A stretch of DNA of 38,464 nucleotides from a virus (taxonomy: Duplodnaviria; Heunggongvirae; Uroviricota; Caudoviricetes). Each line of letters begins with the position of its first letter. Position 1 is the stretch's first letter. Positions 4,840 to 13,837 of the stretch are shown here, one piece after another. The notes beneath the pieces are model-generated. The model worked only from the letters and a program-made list of their open reading frames with translations. It did no database searches and was not told the origin of the DNA. Position numbers and translations under genes: made by a program. The stretch is taken from IMG/VR virus record IMGVR_UViG_2698536454_000007, one strand, 5' to 3'.

Positions 4840-5207
4840 AATTGTCACAGGTAATGAAATTAAAGAGTATTGGTTCGGATATGAATTGACATTTTCGCGG
4901 CACAGAGCTAAAAATAGCCTACTTGTTGGTTTTGTGTGAAAAGCAGACATTTTGAGGCTCAGGATTTGTTATCAAATAAGACCAATACTTATCTATATTA
5001 ATACACATTAAATACTGTGCAATACATTATTACATTTTATTAGATAAGCGATATTTAGGGAAAAGAAAAGTCATAGAAAACAGGCCGCTATTTGTTGTTG
5101 GATTTTATAGGCTATATCTAGATTATCTTGCCACTGCGGTCTCTGTTTACCTAACAGCTTGGGCTTCTTTGCATGCAAGTTTGTAATAACAAGAGTAATC
5201 AAACGGA

Positions 5208-6239
5208 ATGTCTATTAATCCTAAACTTAAGCGTATCGCGCGACGCTATCCAGCGTTATTCCAATATGAGTCCCCCTATATGGCAAGAAAATTAATAATA
5301 TTCGGCAACGGTCTCGGTATGGCTTTAGATCCTGCTCACTTCTCCTTAGACAGAGCGTTGGAAGAAATTTGGCATCGCCCCAATTTTTTAAAAGATATCC
5401 ACAAGCAACTTATCGAGCGTTGTCTTCAGCGGCAAGGTCCACCAGAAGGAGAACATGAGTTGGATACCCTTCACCAGGCTGTCACATATTGTAAAGCTCT
5501 TGCTCAAATTGGAGAGGGGAACGTGCATTGGCTTACTGAAGATGGACTAAACTTCCCCAAAATTACCGCCACTTATATTCACAAAGTTGCAACCAGGTTG
5601 CATAATTACGATAAAGGTTTGCCACAAAGATTCGAAAATGCGCTTGTGGAGTTTGTAAAGAACACACACTCACATATCGCGACATTAAACTATGACAAAT
5701 TATTATACAATTCATTCATAGATAATGATATATTCAACGGGTATGATGGGGTTTTAGTTGATGGGATGCTAAGCCACGGATTTTCCTCTGCAGCGCTCGA
5801 ACGGAAATACAATCGTAGGTTTGGTTATTATTTGCACTTGCATGGTTCACCACTATTTATTAATCAGCATGAAAATGTTTTAAAACTTTCACGCTCACAA
5901 CTTACTCTTGACATAGATGAACCTAGTGAGCATATAGTGTTAACTCATATAAAAAGAAAACCGTCAGTTATAGCAGCATCTAATGTTCTTTCTACGTACT
6001 GGGATTATTTGCAGTTTGCATTATTTGAATCAGAAGAAATAATATTGTTTGGTTACTCTGGTCTCGATATTCACCTTAACCTGCTTATTCGACCTTACCT
6101 AACCTCTAAGCCTTTAAGAGTAATTGAGTGGAGCGGTGCTGGTGAACAAAACGCTCGTGAGATATATTGGAAAAACCAGTTGAGACGGGAAGTTACTGTA
6201 ATTAGGTTGGATAACATCACTGATTTTATTGATTGGTAG
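5208..6239 (+). CDS. Standalone SIR2-like (sirtuin-fold, predicted NAD-binding) protein, 343 aa; candidate anti-phage effector
   Basis: Motifs in sirtuin order: Gly-rich IIFGNGLGMA (res ~31-40), TLNYDKLL (compare sirtuin TQNIDxL), HLHGS (catalytic-His HG motif), ILFGYSGLD (GYS/GTS motif). The gene and its flanks are visibly AT-rich relative to neighbours. Weak Shine-Dalgarno (ACGGA). Confidence 0.65.
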   Translation: MSINPKLKRIARRYPALFQYESPYMARKLIIFGNGLGMALDPAHFSLDRALEEIWHRPNFLKDIHKQLIERCLQRQGPPEGEHELDTLHQAVTYCKALAQIGEGNVHWLTEDGLNFPKITATYIHKVATRLHNYDKGLPQRFENALVEFVKNTHSHIATLNYDKLLYNSFIDNDIFNGYDGVLVDGMLSHGFSSAALERKYNRRFGYYLHLHGSPLFINQHENVLKLSRSQLTLDIDEPSEHIVLTHIKRKPSVIAASNVLSTYWDYLQFALFESEEIILFGYSGLDIHLNLLIRPYLTSKPLRVIEWSGAGEQNAREIYWKNQLRREVTVIRLDNITDFIDW

Positions 6240-6553
6240 CGCAATGCGAAGTTAAAGAGGCAGCCTCATATTTATCAGAGCTGGTGTACGTCCAATACAG
6301 GAGGTTATCGTGCTGGTTCTCAAATGCGCGCTGGCTATTGCGGCTGTAGTGGCAATTTATTGTCTTGCTATTGTTCTTATGGATCGCCTTTCTGATTGAT
6401 TTTATATTGGCGAGGTGACGGGAGTTAAGTAGAATTGCTGCGGGTGCTTGAGGCTGTCTGCCTCGGGCATGCCACCGTAAGGCAGACAGAGAAAAGCCCC
6501 AGTTAACATTACGCGTCCTGCAAGACGCTTAACATTAATCTGAGGCCCAATCT

Positions 6554-6766
6554 ATGCTTCACAAACGTAGGTTAGCCTCTTACGCGCCGAAAGGCAAGGA
6601 GAAGCAGGCTATGAAGCAGCAAAAGGCGATGTTAATCGCCCTGATCGTCATCTGTTTAACCGTCATAGTGACGGCACTGGTAACGAGGAAAGACCTCTGC
6701 GAGGTACGAATCCGAACCGGCCAGACGGAGGTCGCTGTCTTCACAGCTTACGAACCTGAGGAGTAA
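6554..6766 (+). CDS. mok: Mok-like reading frame, an in-frame N-terminal extension of hok (70 aa)
   Basis: ATG at 6554 with GAGG upstream; same frame and stop as hok, as in chromosomal mok/hok loci. Confidence 0.5.
   Translation: MLHKRRLASYAPKGKEKQAMKQQKAMLIALIVICLTVIVTALVTRKDLCEVRIRTGQTEVAVFTAYEPEE
6611..6766 (+). CDS. hok: Hok/Gef-family type I toxin (51 aa), HokD/RelF-like
   Basis: Product MKQQKAMLIALIVICLTVIVTALVTRKDLCEVRIRTGQTEVAVFTAYEPEE: a single transmembrane helix plus the conserved Hok C-terminal region; AGGAG upstream; fold-back stem (CTGTCTGCC...GGCAGACAG) in the 5' leader at 6457-6490. Confidence 0.85.
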   Translation: MKQQKAMLIALIVICLTVIVTALVTRKDLCEVRIRTGQTEVAVFTAYEPEE

Positions 6767-6834: not shown

Positions 6835-6866
6835 AACCCGCTTCGGCGGGTTTTTGTTTTTATTTT
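6835..6866 (+). terminator. Rho-independent terminator downstream of hok
   Basis: CCCGC-TTCG-GCGGG hairpin followed by TTTTTGTTTTTATTTT. Confidence 0.7.
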
Positions 6867-11236: not shown

Positions 11237-11312
11237 GGCCCTTTAGCTCAGTGGTGAGAGCGAGCGACTCATAATCGCCAGGTCGCTGGTTCAAATCCAG
11301 CAAGGGCCACCA
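11237..11312 (+). tRNA. ileZ: tRNA with CAU anticodon (Met or lysidine-modified Ile2; ileZ-like)
   Basis: Cloverleaf: acceptor GGCCCTT/AAGGGCC, D-arm AGCTCAGTGGTGAGAGC, anticodon loop CTCATAA, T-arm GGTTCAAATCC, 3' CCA. Confidence 0.85.
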
Positions 11313-11319
11313 TCACATA

Positions 11320-11396
11320 CCGCTATTAGCTCATCAGGAAAGAGCGCCAGCCTTCGAAGCTGGCTGCGCGGGGTTCAAGTCCCCGATGGCGGTCCA
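11320..11396 (+). tRNA. argN: tRNA-Arg (anticodon UCG)
   Basis: Acceptor CCGCTAT/ATGGCGG, anticodon stem-loop GCCAG-CCTTCGAA-CTGGC, T-arm GGTTCAAGTCC, CCA end. Confidence 0.85.
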
Positions 11397-11409
11397 TTAT
11401 CTGCATCAT

Positions 11410-11486
11410 GCGTTGTTAGCTCAGCCGGACAGAGCAATTGCCTTCTAAGCAATCGGTCACTGGTTCGAATCCAGTACAACGCGCCA
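11410..11486 (+). tRNA. argO: tRNA-Arg (anticodon UCU, reads AGA)
   Basis: Acceptor GCGTTGT/ACAACGC, anticodon loop CCTTCTAAG, T-arm GGTTCGAATCC, CCA end. Confidence 0.85.
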
Positions 11487-11974: not shown

Positions 11975-13837
11975 ATGGCATTTAAACACTATGATGTTGT
12001 CAGGGCGGTATCGCCGTCAGACCTTGCTGATGCACTTGCTCAAAAAATTCGTGAAGGATGGCAACCATACGGCGGGCCGTTTTCTTCGTATACGGATGAT
12101 GGCGCAGCACTTATTCAGGCGATTGTCGCAGAAGGTGATGTGGTCGTCAGTGGTGCAACTGAGCCGGAGTGGTACTACGTCATCGTACTGGCCGGGCAGT
12201 CTAATGCCATGGCTTACGGTGAAGGGCTTCCGCTTCCGGATTCATACGATGCGCCCCATCCGCGCATTAAGCAACTGGCCCGTCGTAACACAGTGACTCC
12301 CGGTGGTGAAGTATGCGTATTTAACGACATCATTCCTGCTGACCATTGTCTGCATGATGTTCAGGATATGAGTACGATTAATCATCCCCGGGCTGACCTG
12401 AGCAAAGGGCAGTACGGCTGTGTCGGACAGGGCTTACATATTGCCAAAAAACTGCTTCCGTATATCCCTAATAATGCGGGGATCCTGCTGGTACCATGCT
12501 GTCGTGGTGGTTCGGCATTCACCCAGGGCACGGAGGGGACATTCAGCGAGTCCACGGGGGCCAGTCAGGATTCGGCTCGCTGGGGAGTGGGTAAGCCGTT
12601 ATATCAGGATCTGCTTTTCCGCACGAAGGCAGCATTGCAGAAAAACCCGAAAAACGTTTTGCTGGCGATATGCTGGATGCAGGGGGAATTCGATATGACG
12701 AATGCCAGTTACGCCCAGCAGCCAGCAGCATTTCTTGCAATGGTACAGCAGTTCCGTGCTGACCTTGCCGGGCTGGCGGCGCAGTGTCACGGTGGAAGTC
12801 CGGCATCAGTCCCCTGGATTTGTGGCGACACGACATACGCGTGGAAACAAGAACACGGTACGCAATATGAAGTGGTATATGGTGCATATAAAGGTAAAGA
12901 ATCCCAGCAGATTTATTTTGTTCCCTTTATGACCGATGGTAGCGGAGTTAATACACCGACAAACAACCCGTCAGAAGATCCTGATATTGTCGGGTCTGGT
13001 TATTACGGTTCGGCATCCCGAACGAACAAAAACTGGGTATCATCAAATCGCCCGACGCATTTCAGCTCATGGGCGCGTCGTGGCATTATTCCCGATCGTA
13101 TGGCAACCGCTATTCTGAACGCAGCCGGGCGCACCTCAGCCTTCATTAGTGGTAAGGCACCGGAAATCAAACCCTCGCCCGGCGGCGACACGCCATCGGG
13201 GCCGTCTGAAGATGCATCCATACGCACAATCTCCCTGTTGCCGACAGCCGGAGACGCTGCTGCGCAGGGCTGGAGCATTAAGAATGGCGGAATTCAGTTG
13301 TCAGATGGTGTATTTAAGATCACCAAGCAGAGCAATAAAGCCTGGTCCCTGACGCGCCCGGTGGATGACGCAGTCTCCCTGCTGACACGGGGTGGCAGAC
13401 TGAGCTGTAAGTTTCGCCTGTCAGGCGCACTGACCAACAACCAGTTCGGTCTGGGAATTTATCTGTATACCGATGTAGCGTTACCTGACGTCGTGGCGAT
13501 GACCGGGACTGGTAACCCGTTCCTGATGTCGTTCTTCACCCAGACCACAGACGGCAAACTGAATCTGATGCATCACAAGAAAGCAGGAAACACAAAGTTG
13601 GGCGAGTTCGGGAATTACAGTAACGACTGGCAGACGCTGGAGCTGGTGTTCACCGCCGGCAGTGCCACGGTTGCTCCGAAACTGAATGGAGTGGCTGGCC
13701 CGGCATTCCAGGTCATAAAAGACAGTCTGACAGTGGGACTAAATGCACTGACGCTGACGGATATTACCAAAAATGCAACGTATGGCGTTGAGATAGAAAG
13801 TCTGGTGCTGGAGATAAATGCACCGGCATCATCATAA
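11975..13837 (+). CDS. nanS: Prophage NanS-p-type sialate O-acetylesterase (YjhS family), 620 aa
   Basis: SGNH/SASA signature [14 protein letters not shown] after an N-terminal DUF1737-like region; GGGAGG Shine-Dalgarno; occupies the slot just downstream of stxAB in Stx phages. Confidence 0.85.

What the first reader, a model, noticed from the sequence alone, without database searches (positions are those of the whole stretch)
6311..6400. 29-codon hydrophobic peptide ORF with a consensus Shine-Dalgarno just downstream of the SIR2-like gene
CAGGAGGTTATC-GTG precedes an ORF encoding MLVLKCALAIAAVVAIYCLAIVLMDRLSD, a single predicted transmembrane helix. It lies between the SIR2-like gene and the hok mRNA leader. 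It could be a small membrane partner or toxin, a remnant, or chance; the strong ribosome-binding site makes chance less likely.
Basis: seen in the sequence. Interest (0 to 1): 0.4.

Follow-up and report, generated by a model that had tools for sequence, protein, structure and literature searches.

The report
Small membrane-protein gene upstream of hok
This is a real, conserved 29-codon gene for a tiny membrane-spanning protein that travels with the hok/sok toxin locus at the edge of a defence-gene hotspot in Escherichia lambda-like prophages; it is not a partner of the SIR2 gene, a relative is known to be translated, and its function is still unknown.

Summary
The ORF exists, one base left of the stated coordinates: 6310-6399, GTG start, AGGAGG five bases upstream. 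An ORF with this ribosome-binding site and a membrane-helix-like peptide arises in 0.5% of shuffled windows. It is a gene. All 77 related prophage copies keep the frame. The ORF is more conserved than both flanks. Synonymous changes are twice the expected number (22 of 43 versus 11.2, P=0.0004), and median dN/dS is 0.36. A 55%-identical 34-aa relative in E. coli O157:H7 Sakai (ECs_5710/XECs145) has strong ribosome-profiling signal. It is not a SIR2 partner: homology to other phages starts at 6257, after the SIR2 gene. About 1,400 of 5,426 complete E. coli genomes carry the block, and only 30 carry it joined to this SIR2 gene. Elsewhere the left neighbour is another defence gene (PD-T7-1, PDC-S15, ThsA-like). 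The right neighbour is hok/sok in 102 of 107 copies. Most alleles have their own promoter-like site (TTGAAT-17-CATATT); here the SIR2 junction replaced its -35 hexamer. There is no hit in any family library, no similarity to Hok and no antisense-RNA hallmark. The best reading is a single-pass inner-membrane microprotein of the prophage backbone. A functional tie to Hok is possible but unproven.

The parts
5208..6239 (+). SIR2_2-domain gene. It is variable defence-type cargo to the left of the small ORF. It is context, not a dedicated partner, but it is probably the source of read-through transcription in this window.
   Evidence: Pfam PF13289 E=1e-5. Weak PADLOC hits to Aga_SIR2 and PDC-S21. 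PGAP calls it 'SIR2 family protein'. Only 30 of 5,426 genomes join it to the ORF block.
6244..6249 (+). The position where other alleles have the -35 hexamer TTGAA(T/G). Here it reads ATGCGA, a 3/6 match, because the SIR2 cargo junction replaced it.
   Evidence: Alignment of 28 unique 5' regions anchored on CATATT. Comparison with E. coli A3024, which keeps about 95 nt more including TTGAAT.
6255..6257 (.). Left boundary of the conserved block, i.e. the cargo/backbone recombination junction.
   Evidence: Homology to phages Tritos, mEp460_ev081, Evi and HannyBb, and to about 1,040 E. coli genomes, starts at 6257.
6267..6272 (+). Conserved -10-like hexamer CATATT, 37 nt upstream of the start codon.
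   Evidence: Present in 27 of 28 unique 5' variants (TATATT in the other). It is paired with TTGAAT or TTGAAG at a 17-nt spacing in 20 of them, even though the spacer sequence diverges. This is inferred from sequence; no TSS data were available.
6299..6304 (+). Shine-Dalgarno sequence AGGAGG, 5 nt before the GTG.
   Evidence: Sequence. Kept as AGGAGG, GGGAGG or AGGAGA at constant spacing in nearly all alleles.
6310..6399 (+). 29-codon gene for a single-pass membrane microprotein, MLVLKCALAIAAVVAIYCLAIVLMDRLSD.
   Evidence: ORF call. Intact in 77 of 77 related copies. Nucleotide diversity per site is 0.071, against 0.19 and 0.16 in the flanks; variable columns at codon positions 1/2/3 number 12/8/19. 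Synonymous excess P=0.0004 in this frame only. Median dN/dS 0.36. The exact peptide is in NCBI as a hypothetical protein of E. albertii.
6407..6435 (+). hok promoter (TTGGCG-17-TAGAAT). It begins 7 nt after the ORF's stop codon, and no terminator lies in between.
   Evidence: Promoter and terminator scan. The Rfam model starts at 6442.
6442..6616 (+). hok mRNA leader / sok antisense region.
   Evidence: Rfam RF01794, 116.2 bits, E=3.8e-27, full model.
6554..6766 (+). mok reading frame (70 aa), which contains hok (6611-6766, 51 aa).
   Evidence: ORF list. Pfam HOK_GEF E=3e-23.
6835..6862 (+). Intrinsic terminator of the hok transcript. It is the first terminator downstream of the small ORF.
   Evidence: Terminator scan: 7-bp stem with 5 GC pairs plus a T run.

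Best explanation
Window 6310-6399 is a genuine protein-coding gene for a 29-residue single-pass inner-membrane microprotein. It belongs to a narrow family (29-36 aa; core ..AVxAIYCLxxxLM(D/E)RL(S/G)(D/N)-stop) found only in lambda-like prophages of Escherichia and Shigella. The gene is part of the conserved phage backbone. It forms the right border of a hotspot that holds interchangeable anti-phage cargo (here a SIR2-family gene), and it lies directly upstream of the hok/sok promoter. In most prophages it has its own sigma-70-type promoter-like site (TTGAAT-17-CATATT). It has no terminator, so its transcript should run on into hok. In this window the SIR2 junction removed the -35 hexamer. Expression here most likely depends on read-through from the SIR2 gene or the early rightward operon (inferred). 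The product, not merely the act of translation, is under selection. I infer that the peptide inserts into the inner membrane and acts through helix-helix contacts. The invariant mid-helix Tyr-Cys, the conserved small residues and the juxtamembrane LMDRL motif point to contact with a larger membrane partner, as other 29-50-aa bacterial membrane microproteins do. Shown here: the gene is real, it is conserved, its context is as described, it is independent of SIR2, and a homolog is translated. Inferred: promoter use, membrane insertion and mode of action. Unknown: the partner. The adjacent Hok toxin is the first candidate, and a host membrane protein or an incoming phage's entry route is the alternative.
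For: Anatomy: consensus SD and GTG start. The combination of SD, ORF and membrane-helix-like peptide occurs 0.005 times per shuffled window.

Coding signal: 77 of 77 related blocks are intact, and the only indel is an in-frame 3-nt deletion. The ORF is about half as diverse as its flanks, and variation concentrates at the third codon position. There are 22 synonymous changes among 43 distinct mutations against 11.2 expected (P=0.0004). The other two frames show no excess and acquire stop codons. The 34-aa branch shows 7 synonymous and 5 non-synonymous changes; against the 29-aa branch, 15 of 28 residues are identical and 8 codons differ synonymously. Median pairwise dN/dS is 0.36 with dS up to 1.6.

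Translation of a homolog: XECs145 of E. coli O157:H7 Sakai contains the 34-aa relative. In LB its translatome RPKM is 346, RCV 4.35 and coverage 0.99, it is predicted to be an inner-membrane protein, and it was classed 'real' (PMC5597208, supplementary tables). The mean RCV of short annotated genes in that study is 1.55. The ORF is now annotated as ECs_5710 upstream of mok/hok in prophage Sp6.

Context: the block starts at 6257. It is present in 1,400 of 5,426 complete E. coli genomes. Only 30 genomes join it to this SIR2 gene. The left neighbours elsewhere are PD-T7-1 (E=4e-157), PDC-S15 (1e-98), a ThsA-like SIR2 (9e-32), Hp3 and HigBA. hok follows in 102 of 107 copies, including the divergent alleles P0053 and P0056.

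Promoter-like site: both hexamers are conserved across diverged spacers.

No rival RNA element: fold z-score 0.07, and the Rfam hit begins at 6442.
Against: There is no direct evidence of transcription or translation for this 29-aa allele. The Ribo-seq evidence is for a 55%-identical relative. That relative lies in a multi-copy prophage region, and the published ORF call starts further upstream.

In this window the -35 hexamer is gone, so expression here is an inference.

The family is very narrow: 22 representatives among 1.84 billion clusters, all from Escherichia or Shigella. The alleles may trace to few independent lineages, which weakens the statistics.

Selection is only moderate (dN/dS 0.36, and some pairs approach 1).

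The gene is dispensable. About 60% of hok loci of this type lack it. Nine have a recombination breakpoint inside it. The A3024 allele lost its stop codon.

The charges flanking the helix are not conserved: K5 is T or E in other alleles. Topology, and therefore the partner, cannot be inferred.

No function can be assigned by homology: Pfam, PHROGs, NCBIfam, PADLOC and the PDB gave no significant match.
Confidence: 0.8

Rival explanations
1. The microprotein is a functional companion of the Hok toxin, for example a membrane-level modulator, immunity factor or co-toxin. On this view the prophage locus is in effect small ORF + mok/hok + sok, co-transcribed because no terminator separates them.
For: hok follows the ORF in 102 of 107 copies and also follows the most divergent alleles. 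No terminator lies between the stop codon and the hok promoter, which is 7 nt away. 74% of hok loci of this type have some small ORF with an SD and a membrane-helix-like peptide ending within 130 nt upstream of the hok TSS, against 1.4% at random positions in the same contigs. These ORFs come from at least three unrelated families: 27 aa, 29-34 aa and 59 aa. Both products are small inner-membrane peptides.
Against: About 25% of these hok loci have no such ORF, and about 60% lack this family. Five loci, including one in a Shigella flexneri genome, keep the ORF intact although hok was replaced immediately after the stop codon. Recombination breakpoints cluster exactly between the two genes, as expected for separable modules. 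From established knowledge, the plasmid R1 hok/sok locus works with hok, mok and sok alone. The linkage may simply reflect synteny among closely related prophages, and the random-position background is a lenient control.
Confidence: 0.2
2. It is a stand-alone membrane toxin of the type I toxin-antitoxin kind.
For: It is a small hydrophobic peptide with a strong SD, next to a bona fide type I locus. A promoter-like site on the minus strand (6428 to 6399, TTAACT-18-TAAAAT) could give an antisense RNA.
Against: The minus-strand -10 hexamer is not conserved in most alleles, where TTTCATATT replaces TTTTATATT. No minus-strand terminator was found. The mRNA region has no unusual stability (z=0.07), although the predicted fold pairs the start-codon region in a 5' stem. 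There is no similarity to Hok (hhalign probability 1.4%) or to any toxin family. The homolog is efficiently translated in healthy growing Sakai cells (RCV 4.35), which is unlike a silenced toxin. The C-terminus is acidic, not basic.
Confidence: 0.07
3. It is the membrane partner or effector of the adjacent SIR2-family defence gene, forming a two-gene system.
For: The two genes are adjacent, on the same strand and 70 nt apart, with no terminator between them. In this window the ORF has lost its own -35 hexamer and so is probably co-transcribed with the SIR2 gene.
Against: Only 30 of 5,426 genomes carry the SIR2-ORF junction, while about 1,040 carry the ORF block alone, starting exactly at 6257. 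In four isolated phages and many contigs the ORF sits next to unrelated cargo, sometimes on the opposite strand. In A3024 an 89%-identical SIR2 gene is separated from the ORF by about 95 further bases that include the ORF's own promoter-like site.
Confidence: 0.03
4. It is not a functional protein gene. The conservation would reflect a cis-acting DNA or RNA element (upstream region of the hok promoter, a recombination site), or an upstream ORF whose translation matters but whose product does not.
For: The block abuts the hok promoter. The ORF is short and usually left unannotated by PGAP. Selection is moderate, and a few allele pairs have dN/dS near 1.
Against: A frame-specific excess of synonymous changes is not expected for a DNA or RNA element. 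Amino-acid replacements are conservative. The 34-aa branch keeps the peptide pattern at about 60% nucleotide identity. There is no RNA-structure signal. hok promoters work without this block in most hok loci. SD strength and spacing are conserved.
Confidence: 0.08

Closest known systems
ECs_5710 / XECs145 of E. coli O157:H7 Sakai prophage Sp6 (34-aa hypothetical protein; Hücker et al. 2017, PMC5597208)
   Same: It is a homolog: 15 of 28 aligned residues are identical, with the same ...YCL...LMDRL-stop core. It has the same position, immediately upstream of a mok/hok promoter in a lambda-like prophage. It has a strong SD and a single predicted membrane helix. It was detected as translated by Ribo-seq.
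   Different: It has five extra acidic N-terminal residues (MSDDIS...). It has no promoter of its own: it follows a 27-aa membrane ORF and a DUF551-type gene in one operon. A 22-bp palindrome separates it from the hok promoter. No function has been assigned to it either.
Small single-pass membrane regulators of E. coli (KdpF 29 aa, MgtS 31 aa, PmrR 29 aa, AcrZ 49 aa); from general knowledge
   Same: Similar size and architecture: a short N-terminus, one hydrophobic helix and a short polar tail. By analogy, the expected mode of action is binding a larger membrane protein.
   Different: There is no sequence similarity (no NCBIfam or Pfam hit above noise; the KdpF hit for the unrelated 27-aa ORF has E=0.056). 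Those proteins are chromosomal with known partners. This one is prophage-borne and its partner is unknown.
Hok/Gef type I toxins and their mok reading frames
   Same: A small inner-membrane peptide encoded in the same locus, probably partly on the same transcript. Like mok, it is a short translated frame upstream of hok.
   Different: It lies outside the hok mRNA, which Rfam places from 6442 on. It does not overlap hok. It has no HOK_GEF domain, no periplasmic Cys-containing tail and no sok-type antisense RNA.
Prophage-encoded membrane proteins expressed in lysogens that exclude superinfecting phages (e.g. HK97 gp15, P22 SieA, T4 Imm); from general knowledge
   Same: A small membrane protein with its own promoter-like site inside a prophage. 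Its homolog is translated in uninduced lysogens. It sits at a hotspot for anti-phage genes.
   Different: No homology was detected. It is much smaller and has one helix. An exclusion phenotype has not been tested.

Membership tests
hok-proximal 29-36-aa membrane microprotein family (ECs_5710 / XECs145-like) | Core sequence ..A-V-x-(A/G)-(I/V)-Y-C-L-x-x-x-L-M-(D/E)-(R/H)-L-(S/G)-(D/N)-stop | tested here: met
   Alignments A2 and A3. A profile search returns only family members, 22 representatives with E<=1e-3.
hok-proximal 29-36-aa membrane microprotein family (ECs_5710 / XECs145-like) | Located directly upstream of a hok/mok promoter in a lambda-like prophage, on the same strand | tested here: met
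   The window stop codon at 6399 is 7 nt from the hok -35 hexamer. 102 of 107 copies are followed by hok.
hok-proximal 29-36-aa membrane microprotein family (ECs_5710 / XECs145-like) | Reading frame under purifying selection | tested here: met
hok-proximal 29-36-aa membrane microprotein family (ECs_5710 / XECs145-like) | Translated in vivo | not testable with these tools
   Shown only for the Sakai 34-aa member by published Ribo-seq. No data were found for a 29-aa allele.
Type I toxin-antitoxin toxin | Small hydrophobic membrane peptide | tested here: met
   Mean hydropathy 2.84 over a 19-residue window.
Type I toxin-antitoxin toxin | Cognate antisense or divergent small RNA with a conserved promoter and terminator | tested here: not met
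   The only minus-strand promoter-like site (6428 to 6399) is not conserved among alleles, and there is no minus-strand terminator.
Type I toxin-antitoxin toxin | Structured mRNA that masks the ribosome-binding site | tested here: inconclusive
   The fold of 6276-6445 has z-score 0.07, with 93 of 200 shuffles folding as well, so stability is ordinary. The predicted fold does pair the start-codon region in a 5' stem, and its conservation was not tested.
Type I toxin-antitoxin toxin | Toxicity when expressed | not testable with these tools
   Needs an induction experiment.
Hok/Gef family (Pfam PF01848) | Match to the HOK_GEF profile or to the Hok sequence | tested here: not met
   No Pfam hit even at E<=10. 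hhalign against the window's Hok gives probability 1.4%.
SIR2-based two-gene defence system (partner gene) | Consistent co-occurrence with the SIR2 gene | tested here: not met
   30 genomes carry the junction, against about 1,040 with the ORF block alone. The cargo is unrelated in other phages.
Bacterial lipoprotein or secreted-peptide precursor | Lipobox L-(A/S)-(G/A)-C, or a signal peptide followed by a mature domain | tested here: not met
   From the sequence: Cys6 and Cys18 are not in a lipobox context, and only 5 residues follow the hydrophobic stretch.

The most novel reading that the evidence does not exclude
Prophage hok/sok loci of this type may really be three-part membrane modules. 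A small single-pass microprotein would be encoded immediately upstream and co-transcribed into hok. It would come from any of at least three unrelated families (27 aa ..ICRWG, 29-36 aa ..LMDRLSD, or a 59-aa two-helix protein). It would tune or neutralise Hok in the membrane, or cooperate with it in abortive infection at the border of a defence hotspot. That would be a protein-level layer of control on a classic RNA-controlled type I system.
Probability: 0.15. Interest if true: 0.65.

Novelty: new member of a known kind. Interest (0 to 1): 0.35.

Why it matters
About a quarter of complete E. coli genomes carry this gene. NCBI's annotation pipeline left it unannotated in all 44 listed genome rows. 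It illustrates how conserved microprotein genes hide in 'intergenic' DNA.

Its fixed place, between an exchangeable anti-phage cargo slot and the hok/sok killer locus, makes it a useful landmark for finding that hotspot in lambda-like prophages.

It also raises a testable question: do prophage hok loci have protein-level helpers? If the peptide modulates Hok or blocks phage entry, it would add a component to a textbook toxin-antitoxin system. If not, it is one more prophage membrane microprotein of unknown role.

The analysis also prevents a mis-assignment: the SIR2 gene here should not be described as a two-gene system with a membrane effector.

Tried and rejected
I reran it with a 40-codon in-frame stretch.
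I used degenerate DNA patterns instead.
- The supplements of the BL21 Ribo-RET preprint are not held, so direct evidence for a 29-aa allele could not be read.

Homology searches that found nothing useful:
- Pfam, PHROGs, NCBIfam and PADLOC gave no significant hit for any allele, nor for the neighbouring 27-aa and 59-aa ORFs.
- A PDB profile search found nothing.
- The idea of a truncated hok duplicate was rejected: hhalign probability 1.4%.
- tblastn against isolated phages found only four records (Tritos, mEp460_ev081, Evi, HannyBb). Most of the diversity is in prophages.

Alternative readings rejected:
- The overlapping frames, including the Cys-rich 23-codon ORF at 6324-6395 that stays open in many alleles, show no synonymous excess and acquire stop codons.
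- An RNA element was rejected: fold z-score 0.07, and the weak hairpin at 6334-6353 lies inside the ORF.
- An antisense promoter was rejected as not conserved.

Literature:
- Peptide strings and 'hokW' found no description of this ORF. The hokW-sokW paper does not mention it.

Other points:
- The genome-contig hits in Desulfosarcina and Bacteroidia are chance matches. About two were expected, and they have no ORF.

Full report
**1. The observation**

It starts with GTG at 6310 and ends with TGA at 6397-6399. It encodes MLVLKCALAIAAVVAIYCLAIVLMDRLSD. AGGAGG occupies 6299-6304, five bases before the start codon.

On the left is a 343-codon SIR2_2-domain gene at 5208-6239 (Pfam PF13289, 26.1 bits against a cut-off of 24.5; PGAP 'SIR2 family protein'). 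On the right is a hok/sok locus:
- the hok promoter TTGGCG-17-TAGAAT at 6407-6435;
- the hok leader, matched by Rfam RF01794 over 6442-6616 at 116 bits;
- mok at 6554-6766 and hok at 6611-6766 (HOK_GEF, E=3e-23);
- a terminator at 6835-6862.

The window as a whole is a lambda-like prophage. It runs from an immunity region through replication genes, this region, DUF968, rusA and a Q-like gene to a tRNA cluster, lysis genes and head and tail genes.

The full AGGAGG-plus-start-codon motif occurs only three times in the window, and the other two head ordinary genes. In shuffled windows, an SD-headed ORF of 25-60 codons arises 1.8 times. One that also contains a 19-residue stretch as hydrophobic as a membrane helix arises 0.005 times.

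**2. Is it a gene?**

I collected related DNA in two ways that do not presuppose the frame. One used an exact anchor in the hok leader. The other used BLASTN with the block 6257-6441.

- All 77 non-window copies that cover the SD and ORF are intact. Seventy-five have a GTG start and no gaps. Two have an ATG start and an in-frame 3-nt deletion.
- Nucleotide diversity per site is 0.071 in the ORF, 0.19 in the 42 nt upstream and 0.16 in the 42 nt downstream, even though the downstream stretch contains the hok promoter.
- Variable columns fall 12/8/19 on codon positions 1/2/3.
- Of 43 distinct mutations relative to the consensus, 22 are synonymous in the annotated frame, against 11.2 expected when the same base changes are placed at random (P=0.0004). 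The other two frames show no excess (13 and 6 synonymous) and suffer stop codons.
- A second branch of the family is the 34-aa MSDDISLAMEGALAVIAVVGVYCLVVFLMDRLGN. It has its own AAGGAGGG SD and sits in the same place upstream of hok. It has 7 synonymous and 5 non-synonymous polymorphisms.
- Against the 29-aa branch, 15 of 28 residues are identical and 8 codons differ only synonymously. Identity is highest at the second codon position: 17/23/14 of 28 for positions 1/2/3.
- Further alleles from E. coli A3024 and from the representative-protein search (P0053, P0056) add many more silent differences.
- Over a 22-codon core in eight alleles, the median pairwise dN/dS is 0.36. dS reaches 1.6 while dN stays at or below 0.37.
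- The region has no unusual RNA structure (z=0.07).

The peptide itself, and not just a DNA or RNA element or the act of translation, is under purifying selection.

**3. Experimental evidence from a relative**

The 34-aa sequence is contained in XECs145, one of the intergenic ORFs that Hücker et al. (PLoS One 2017, PMC5597208) found translated in E. coli O157:H7 Sakai.

| Medium | Transcriptome RPKM | Translatome RPKM | RCV | Coverage |
|---|---|---|---|---|
| LB | 79 | 346 | 4.35 | 0.99 |
| BHI control | 121 | 150 | 1.14 | 0.84 |

Their classifier predicted it to be an inner-membrane protein and labelled it 'real'. In that study the mean RCV of short annotated genes in LB is 1.55.

In the current Sakai RefSeq record the ORF is annotated as ECs_5710 (hypothetical protein) in prophage Sp6, just upstream of the mok/hok gene ECs_1520.

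Variants of the 29-aa peptide exist in NCBI as 'hypothetical protein' or 'membrane protein'. The exact window peptide is recorded for E. albertii NBRC 107761. PGAP nevertheless left the block unannotated in all 44 listed E. coli genome rows.

**4. Whose neighbour is it?**

Homology to the isolated phages Tritos, mEp460_ev081, Evi and HannyBb begins at 6257, after the SIR2 stop codon, and continues through the ORF into hok.

In complete E. coli genomes, 1,400 of 5,426 carry 6257-6445 at 90-100% identity. With a query that spans the SIR2 3' end and the ORF, only 30 genomes cover the junction. About 1,040 match only from 6257 onward.

What lies to the left elsewhere is other cargo, often on the opposite strand:
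- PD-T7-1 in mEp460_ev081 (E=4e-157);
- PDC-S15 in Tritos (E=1e-98);
- a ThsA-like SIR2;
- an Hp3-like protein;
- an acetyltransferase;
- HigBA.

The small ORF is therefore not a SIR2 partner. It is the first conserved backbone gene at the right edge of a slot that exchanges anti-phage genes.

To the right, hok follows in 102 of 107 copies that have enough flanking DNA. It also follows the most divergent alleles.

The two genes are nevertheless separable:
- Five loci, and the Shigella flexneri representative genome, keep an intact ORF although hok is replaced immediately after the stop codon.
- About 60% of hok loci with this leader lack the ORF. Their homology ends near 6423 or, in nine loci, inside the ORF at 6363-6377.

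The family was found only in E. coli, E. albertii, E. ruysiae and Shigella. The few MAG contigs with other labels are near-identical E. coli prophage DNA. Only 22 cluster representatives among 1.84 billion match the profile.

**5. Expression signals**

I aligned 28 unique 5' regions on a conserved hexamer. This shows TTGAA(T/G), a 17-nt spacer and CATATT, ending 31 nt before the SD. It is present in 20 of 28 variants, including lineages whose spacer and flanks have diverged. That pattern is what a functional sigma-70 promoter would show, but no TSS data were available.

In the window the homology boundary at 6257 falls inside the spacer. CATATT (6267-6272) is retained, but the -35 position reads ATGCGA. 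E. coli A3024 has an 89%-identical SIR2 gene followed by about 95 more bases that include TTGAAT. The window's arrangement therefore looks like a deletion that fused the SIR2 3' flank to the ORF's promoter.

No terminator separates the SIR2 gene from the ORF, or the ORF from hok. I infer that here the ORF is transcribed by read-through from the SIR2 gene or the early operon. I also infer that, in general, ORF transcripts continue into hok and end at the hok terminator.

**6. What it most likely does**

Homology gives nothing. Pfam, PHROGs, NCBIfam, PADLOC and the PDB gave no significant match. There is no similarity to Hok.

The peptide is a short N-terminus, a helix of about 19 residues and the tail MDRLSD. 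The invariant or nearly invariant positions are L8, V13, Y17, C18, L23, M24, (D/E)25, (R/H)26 and L27, plus small residues at positions 7, 9, 12 and 15. Conserved polar and aromatic residues in mid-helix, together with a juxtamembrane motif, suggest specific helix packing rather than generic hydrophobicity.

I therefore commit to a single-pass inner-membrane microprotein that acts by binding a larger membrane component. This is the mode of action of KdpF, MgtS, PmrR and AcrZ (general knowledge).

My estimates are:

| Claim | Probability |
|---|---|
| It is a real translated membrane-protein gene of the backbone | about 0.8-0.9 |
| Its function is tied to Hok | about 0.2 |
| It has an independent lysogen-expressed role (exclusion of other phages or modulation of a host membrane protein) | about 0.45 |
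| It is a type I-like toxin | under 0.1 |
| It is a SIR2 partner | about 0.03 |

The type I hallmarks that could be checked are absent. The only minus-strand promoter-like site is not conserved, the mRNA region is no more stable than shuffled sequence (although a 5' stem over the start codon is predicted), and the homolog is well translated in healthy cells.

**7. A pattern worth following**

Of the hok loci anchored on the leader, 74% have some ORF of at most 60 codons, with an SD and a membrane-helix-like peptide, ending within 130 nt upstream of the hok TSS. At random positions in the same contigs the figure is 1.4%.

These ORFs fall into at least three unrelated families:
- the family studied here;
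- a 27-aa family, M(T/I)WPEAF...ICRWG, which overlaps the stop codon of a DUF551-type gene by ATGA and is followed by hok in 88 of 111 copies;
- a 59-aa two-helix protein.

Shared ancestry of the prophages and the lenient control mean this is only suggestive. It is the basis for the 'companion of Hok' reading.

**8. Novelty and verdict**

The ORF is a new, essentially uncharacterised member of a known kind: prophage and bacterial membrane microproteins. Database entries and one Ribo-seq catalogue already record the family as hypothetical proteins. I found no paper that describes its link to hok/sok, its promoter-like site or its position at a defence-cargo slot.

Interest is modest (0.35). It is a solid, common, mostly unannotated gene with a clear and cheap experimental path, but it has no demonstrated function and is not surprising in kind.

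Noticed in passing
L217 2044-2127 (Sakai Sp6); L028 2180-2263 (-); L069: There is a second, unrelated small membrane ORF family (27 aa, M[T/I]WPEAF...ICRWG). Its ATG overlaps the stop codon of a DUF551-type gene (ATGA). It is unannotated in Sakai. It sits either directly upstream of the hok promoter or upstream of the 34-aa ORF. hok follows within 700 nt in 88 of 111 viral-contig copies.
   Followed up: partly
27 of the hok-anchored loci L005-L124: A 59-aa two-helix ORF (MKNALQFLFVAFWLFASCMPIIFTARYMEK...CIEYWR) ends about 90 nt upstream of the hok TSS in another set of prophages. It has no PHROG hit.
   Followed up: no
L217 2276-2297: A perfect 22-bp palindrome, CGATATGGGAATTCCCATATCG, lies between the 34-aa ORF and the hok promoter in Sakai-type loci. 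Similar palindromes occur in some hok loci without the ORF. It could be an operator or a hairpin; it is not followed by a T run.
   Followed up: no
window 4840-6257; L001 719-2053; L002 762-2111; L171 4232-5026; L305 1708-2291: The slot between the DUF977/Ren-like gene and the small ORF is a hotspot for anti-phage cargo. It holds a SIR2_2 gene here and, elsewhere, PDC-S15, PD-T7-1, a ThsA-like SIR2 preceded by a short ORF, Hp3 or HigBA.
   Followed up: partly
window 6240-6272 versus L208 3040-3175: The right junction of the SIR2 cargo in the window lies inside the spacer of the small ORF's promoter-like site. E. coli A3024 has the same SIR2 3' flank followed by about 95 extra bases that include the -35 hexamer TTGAAT. 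The window's version therefore looks like a deletion derivative.
   Followed up: yes
L208 3212-3319 and 3490-4650: In E. coli A3024 the small ORF is a divergent 35-aa allele, MLALTCVLAIVAVLVIYCLVVAFMERFSDWRGRGS. A short deletion removed its original stop codon. The downstream hok is interrupted by an ISEsa1-family element.
   Followed up: partly
window 6324-6395 (+): An overlapping 23-codon Cys-rich ORF in another frame (MRAGYCGCSGNLLSCYCSYGSPF) stays open in many alleles. It shows no synonymous excess (6 synonymous, 36 non-synonymous, 1 stop-creating change), so it is not selected.
   Followed up: yes
window 6428-6399 (-): A promoter-like site on the minus strand (TTAACT-18-TAAAAT) overlaps the hok promoter and would give an RNA antisense to the small ORF. 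Its -10 hexamer is not conserved in most alleles.
   Followed up: partly
window 11237-11486: There is a tRNA cluster of Met-type (CAT), Arg (TCG) and Arg (TCT), as found upstream of stx genes in Shiga-toxin phages such as Sakai Sp5. Here no stx-sized gene follows before the 620-codon ORF at 11975.
   Followed up: no
L209, L211, L213: Short contigs in MAGs labelled Collinsella, Candidatus Scatousia and Haemophilus carry near-identical copies of this E. coli prophage segment (small ORF plus hok leader). This is most likely binning contamination.
   Followed up: no
L147, L148, L171, L178, L199, L216: In the loci without hok, the DNA that replaces hok right after the small ORF's stop codon carries a reverse-strand 114-120-aa gene (MHV.EEVVMTHKRIPKDWVIKRSTPFF...). 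This shows a second exchange point at 6400.
   Followed up: no
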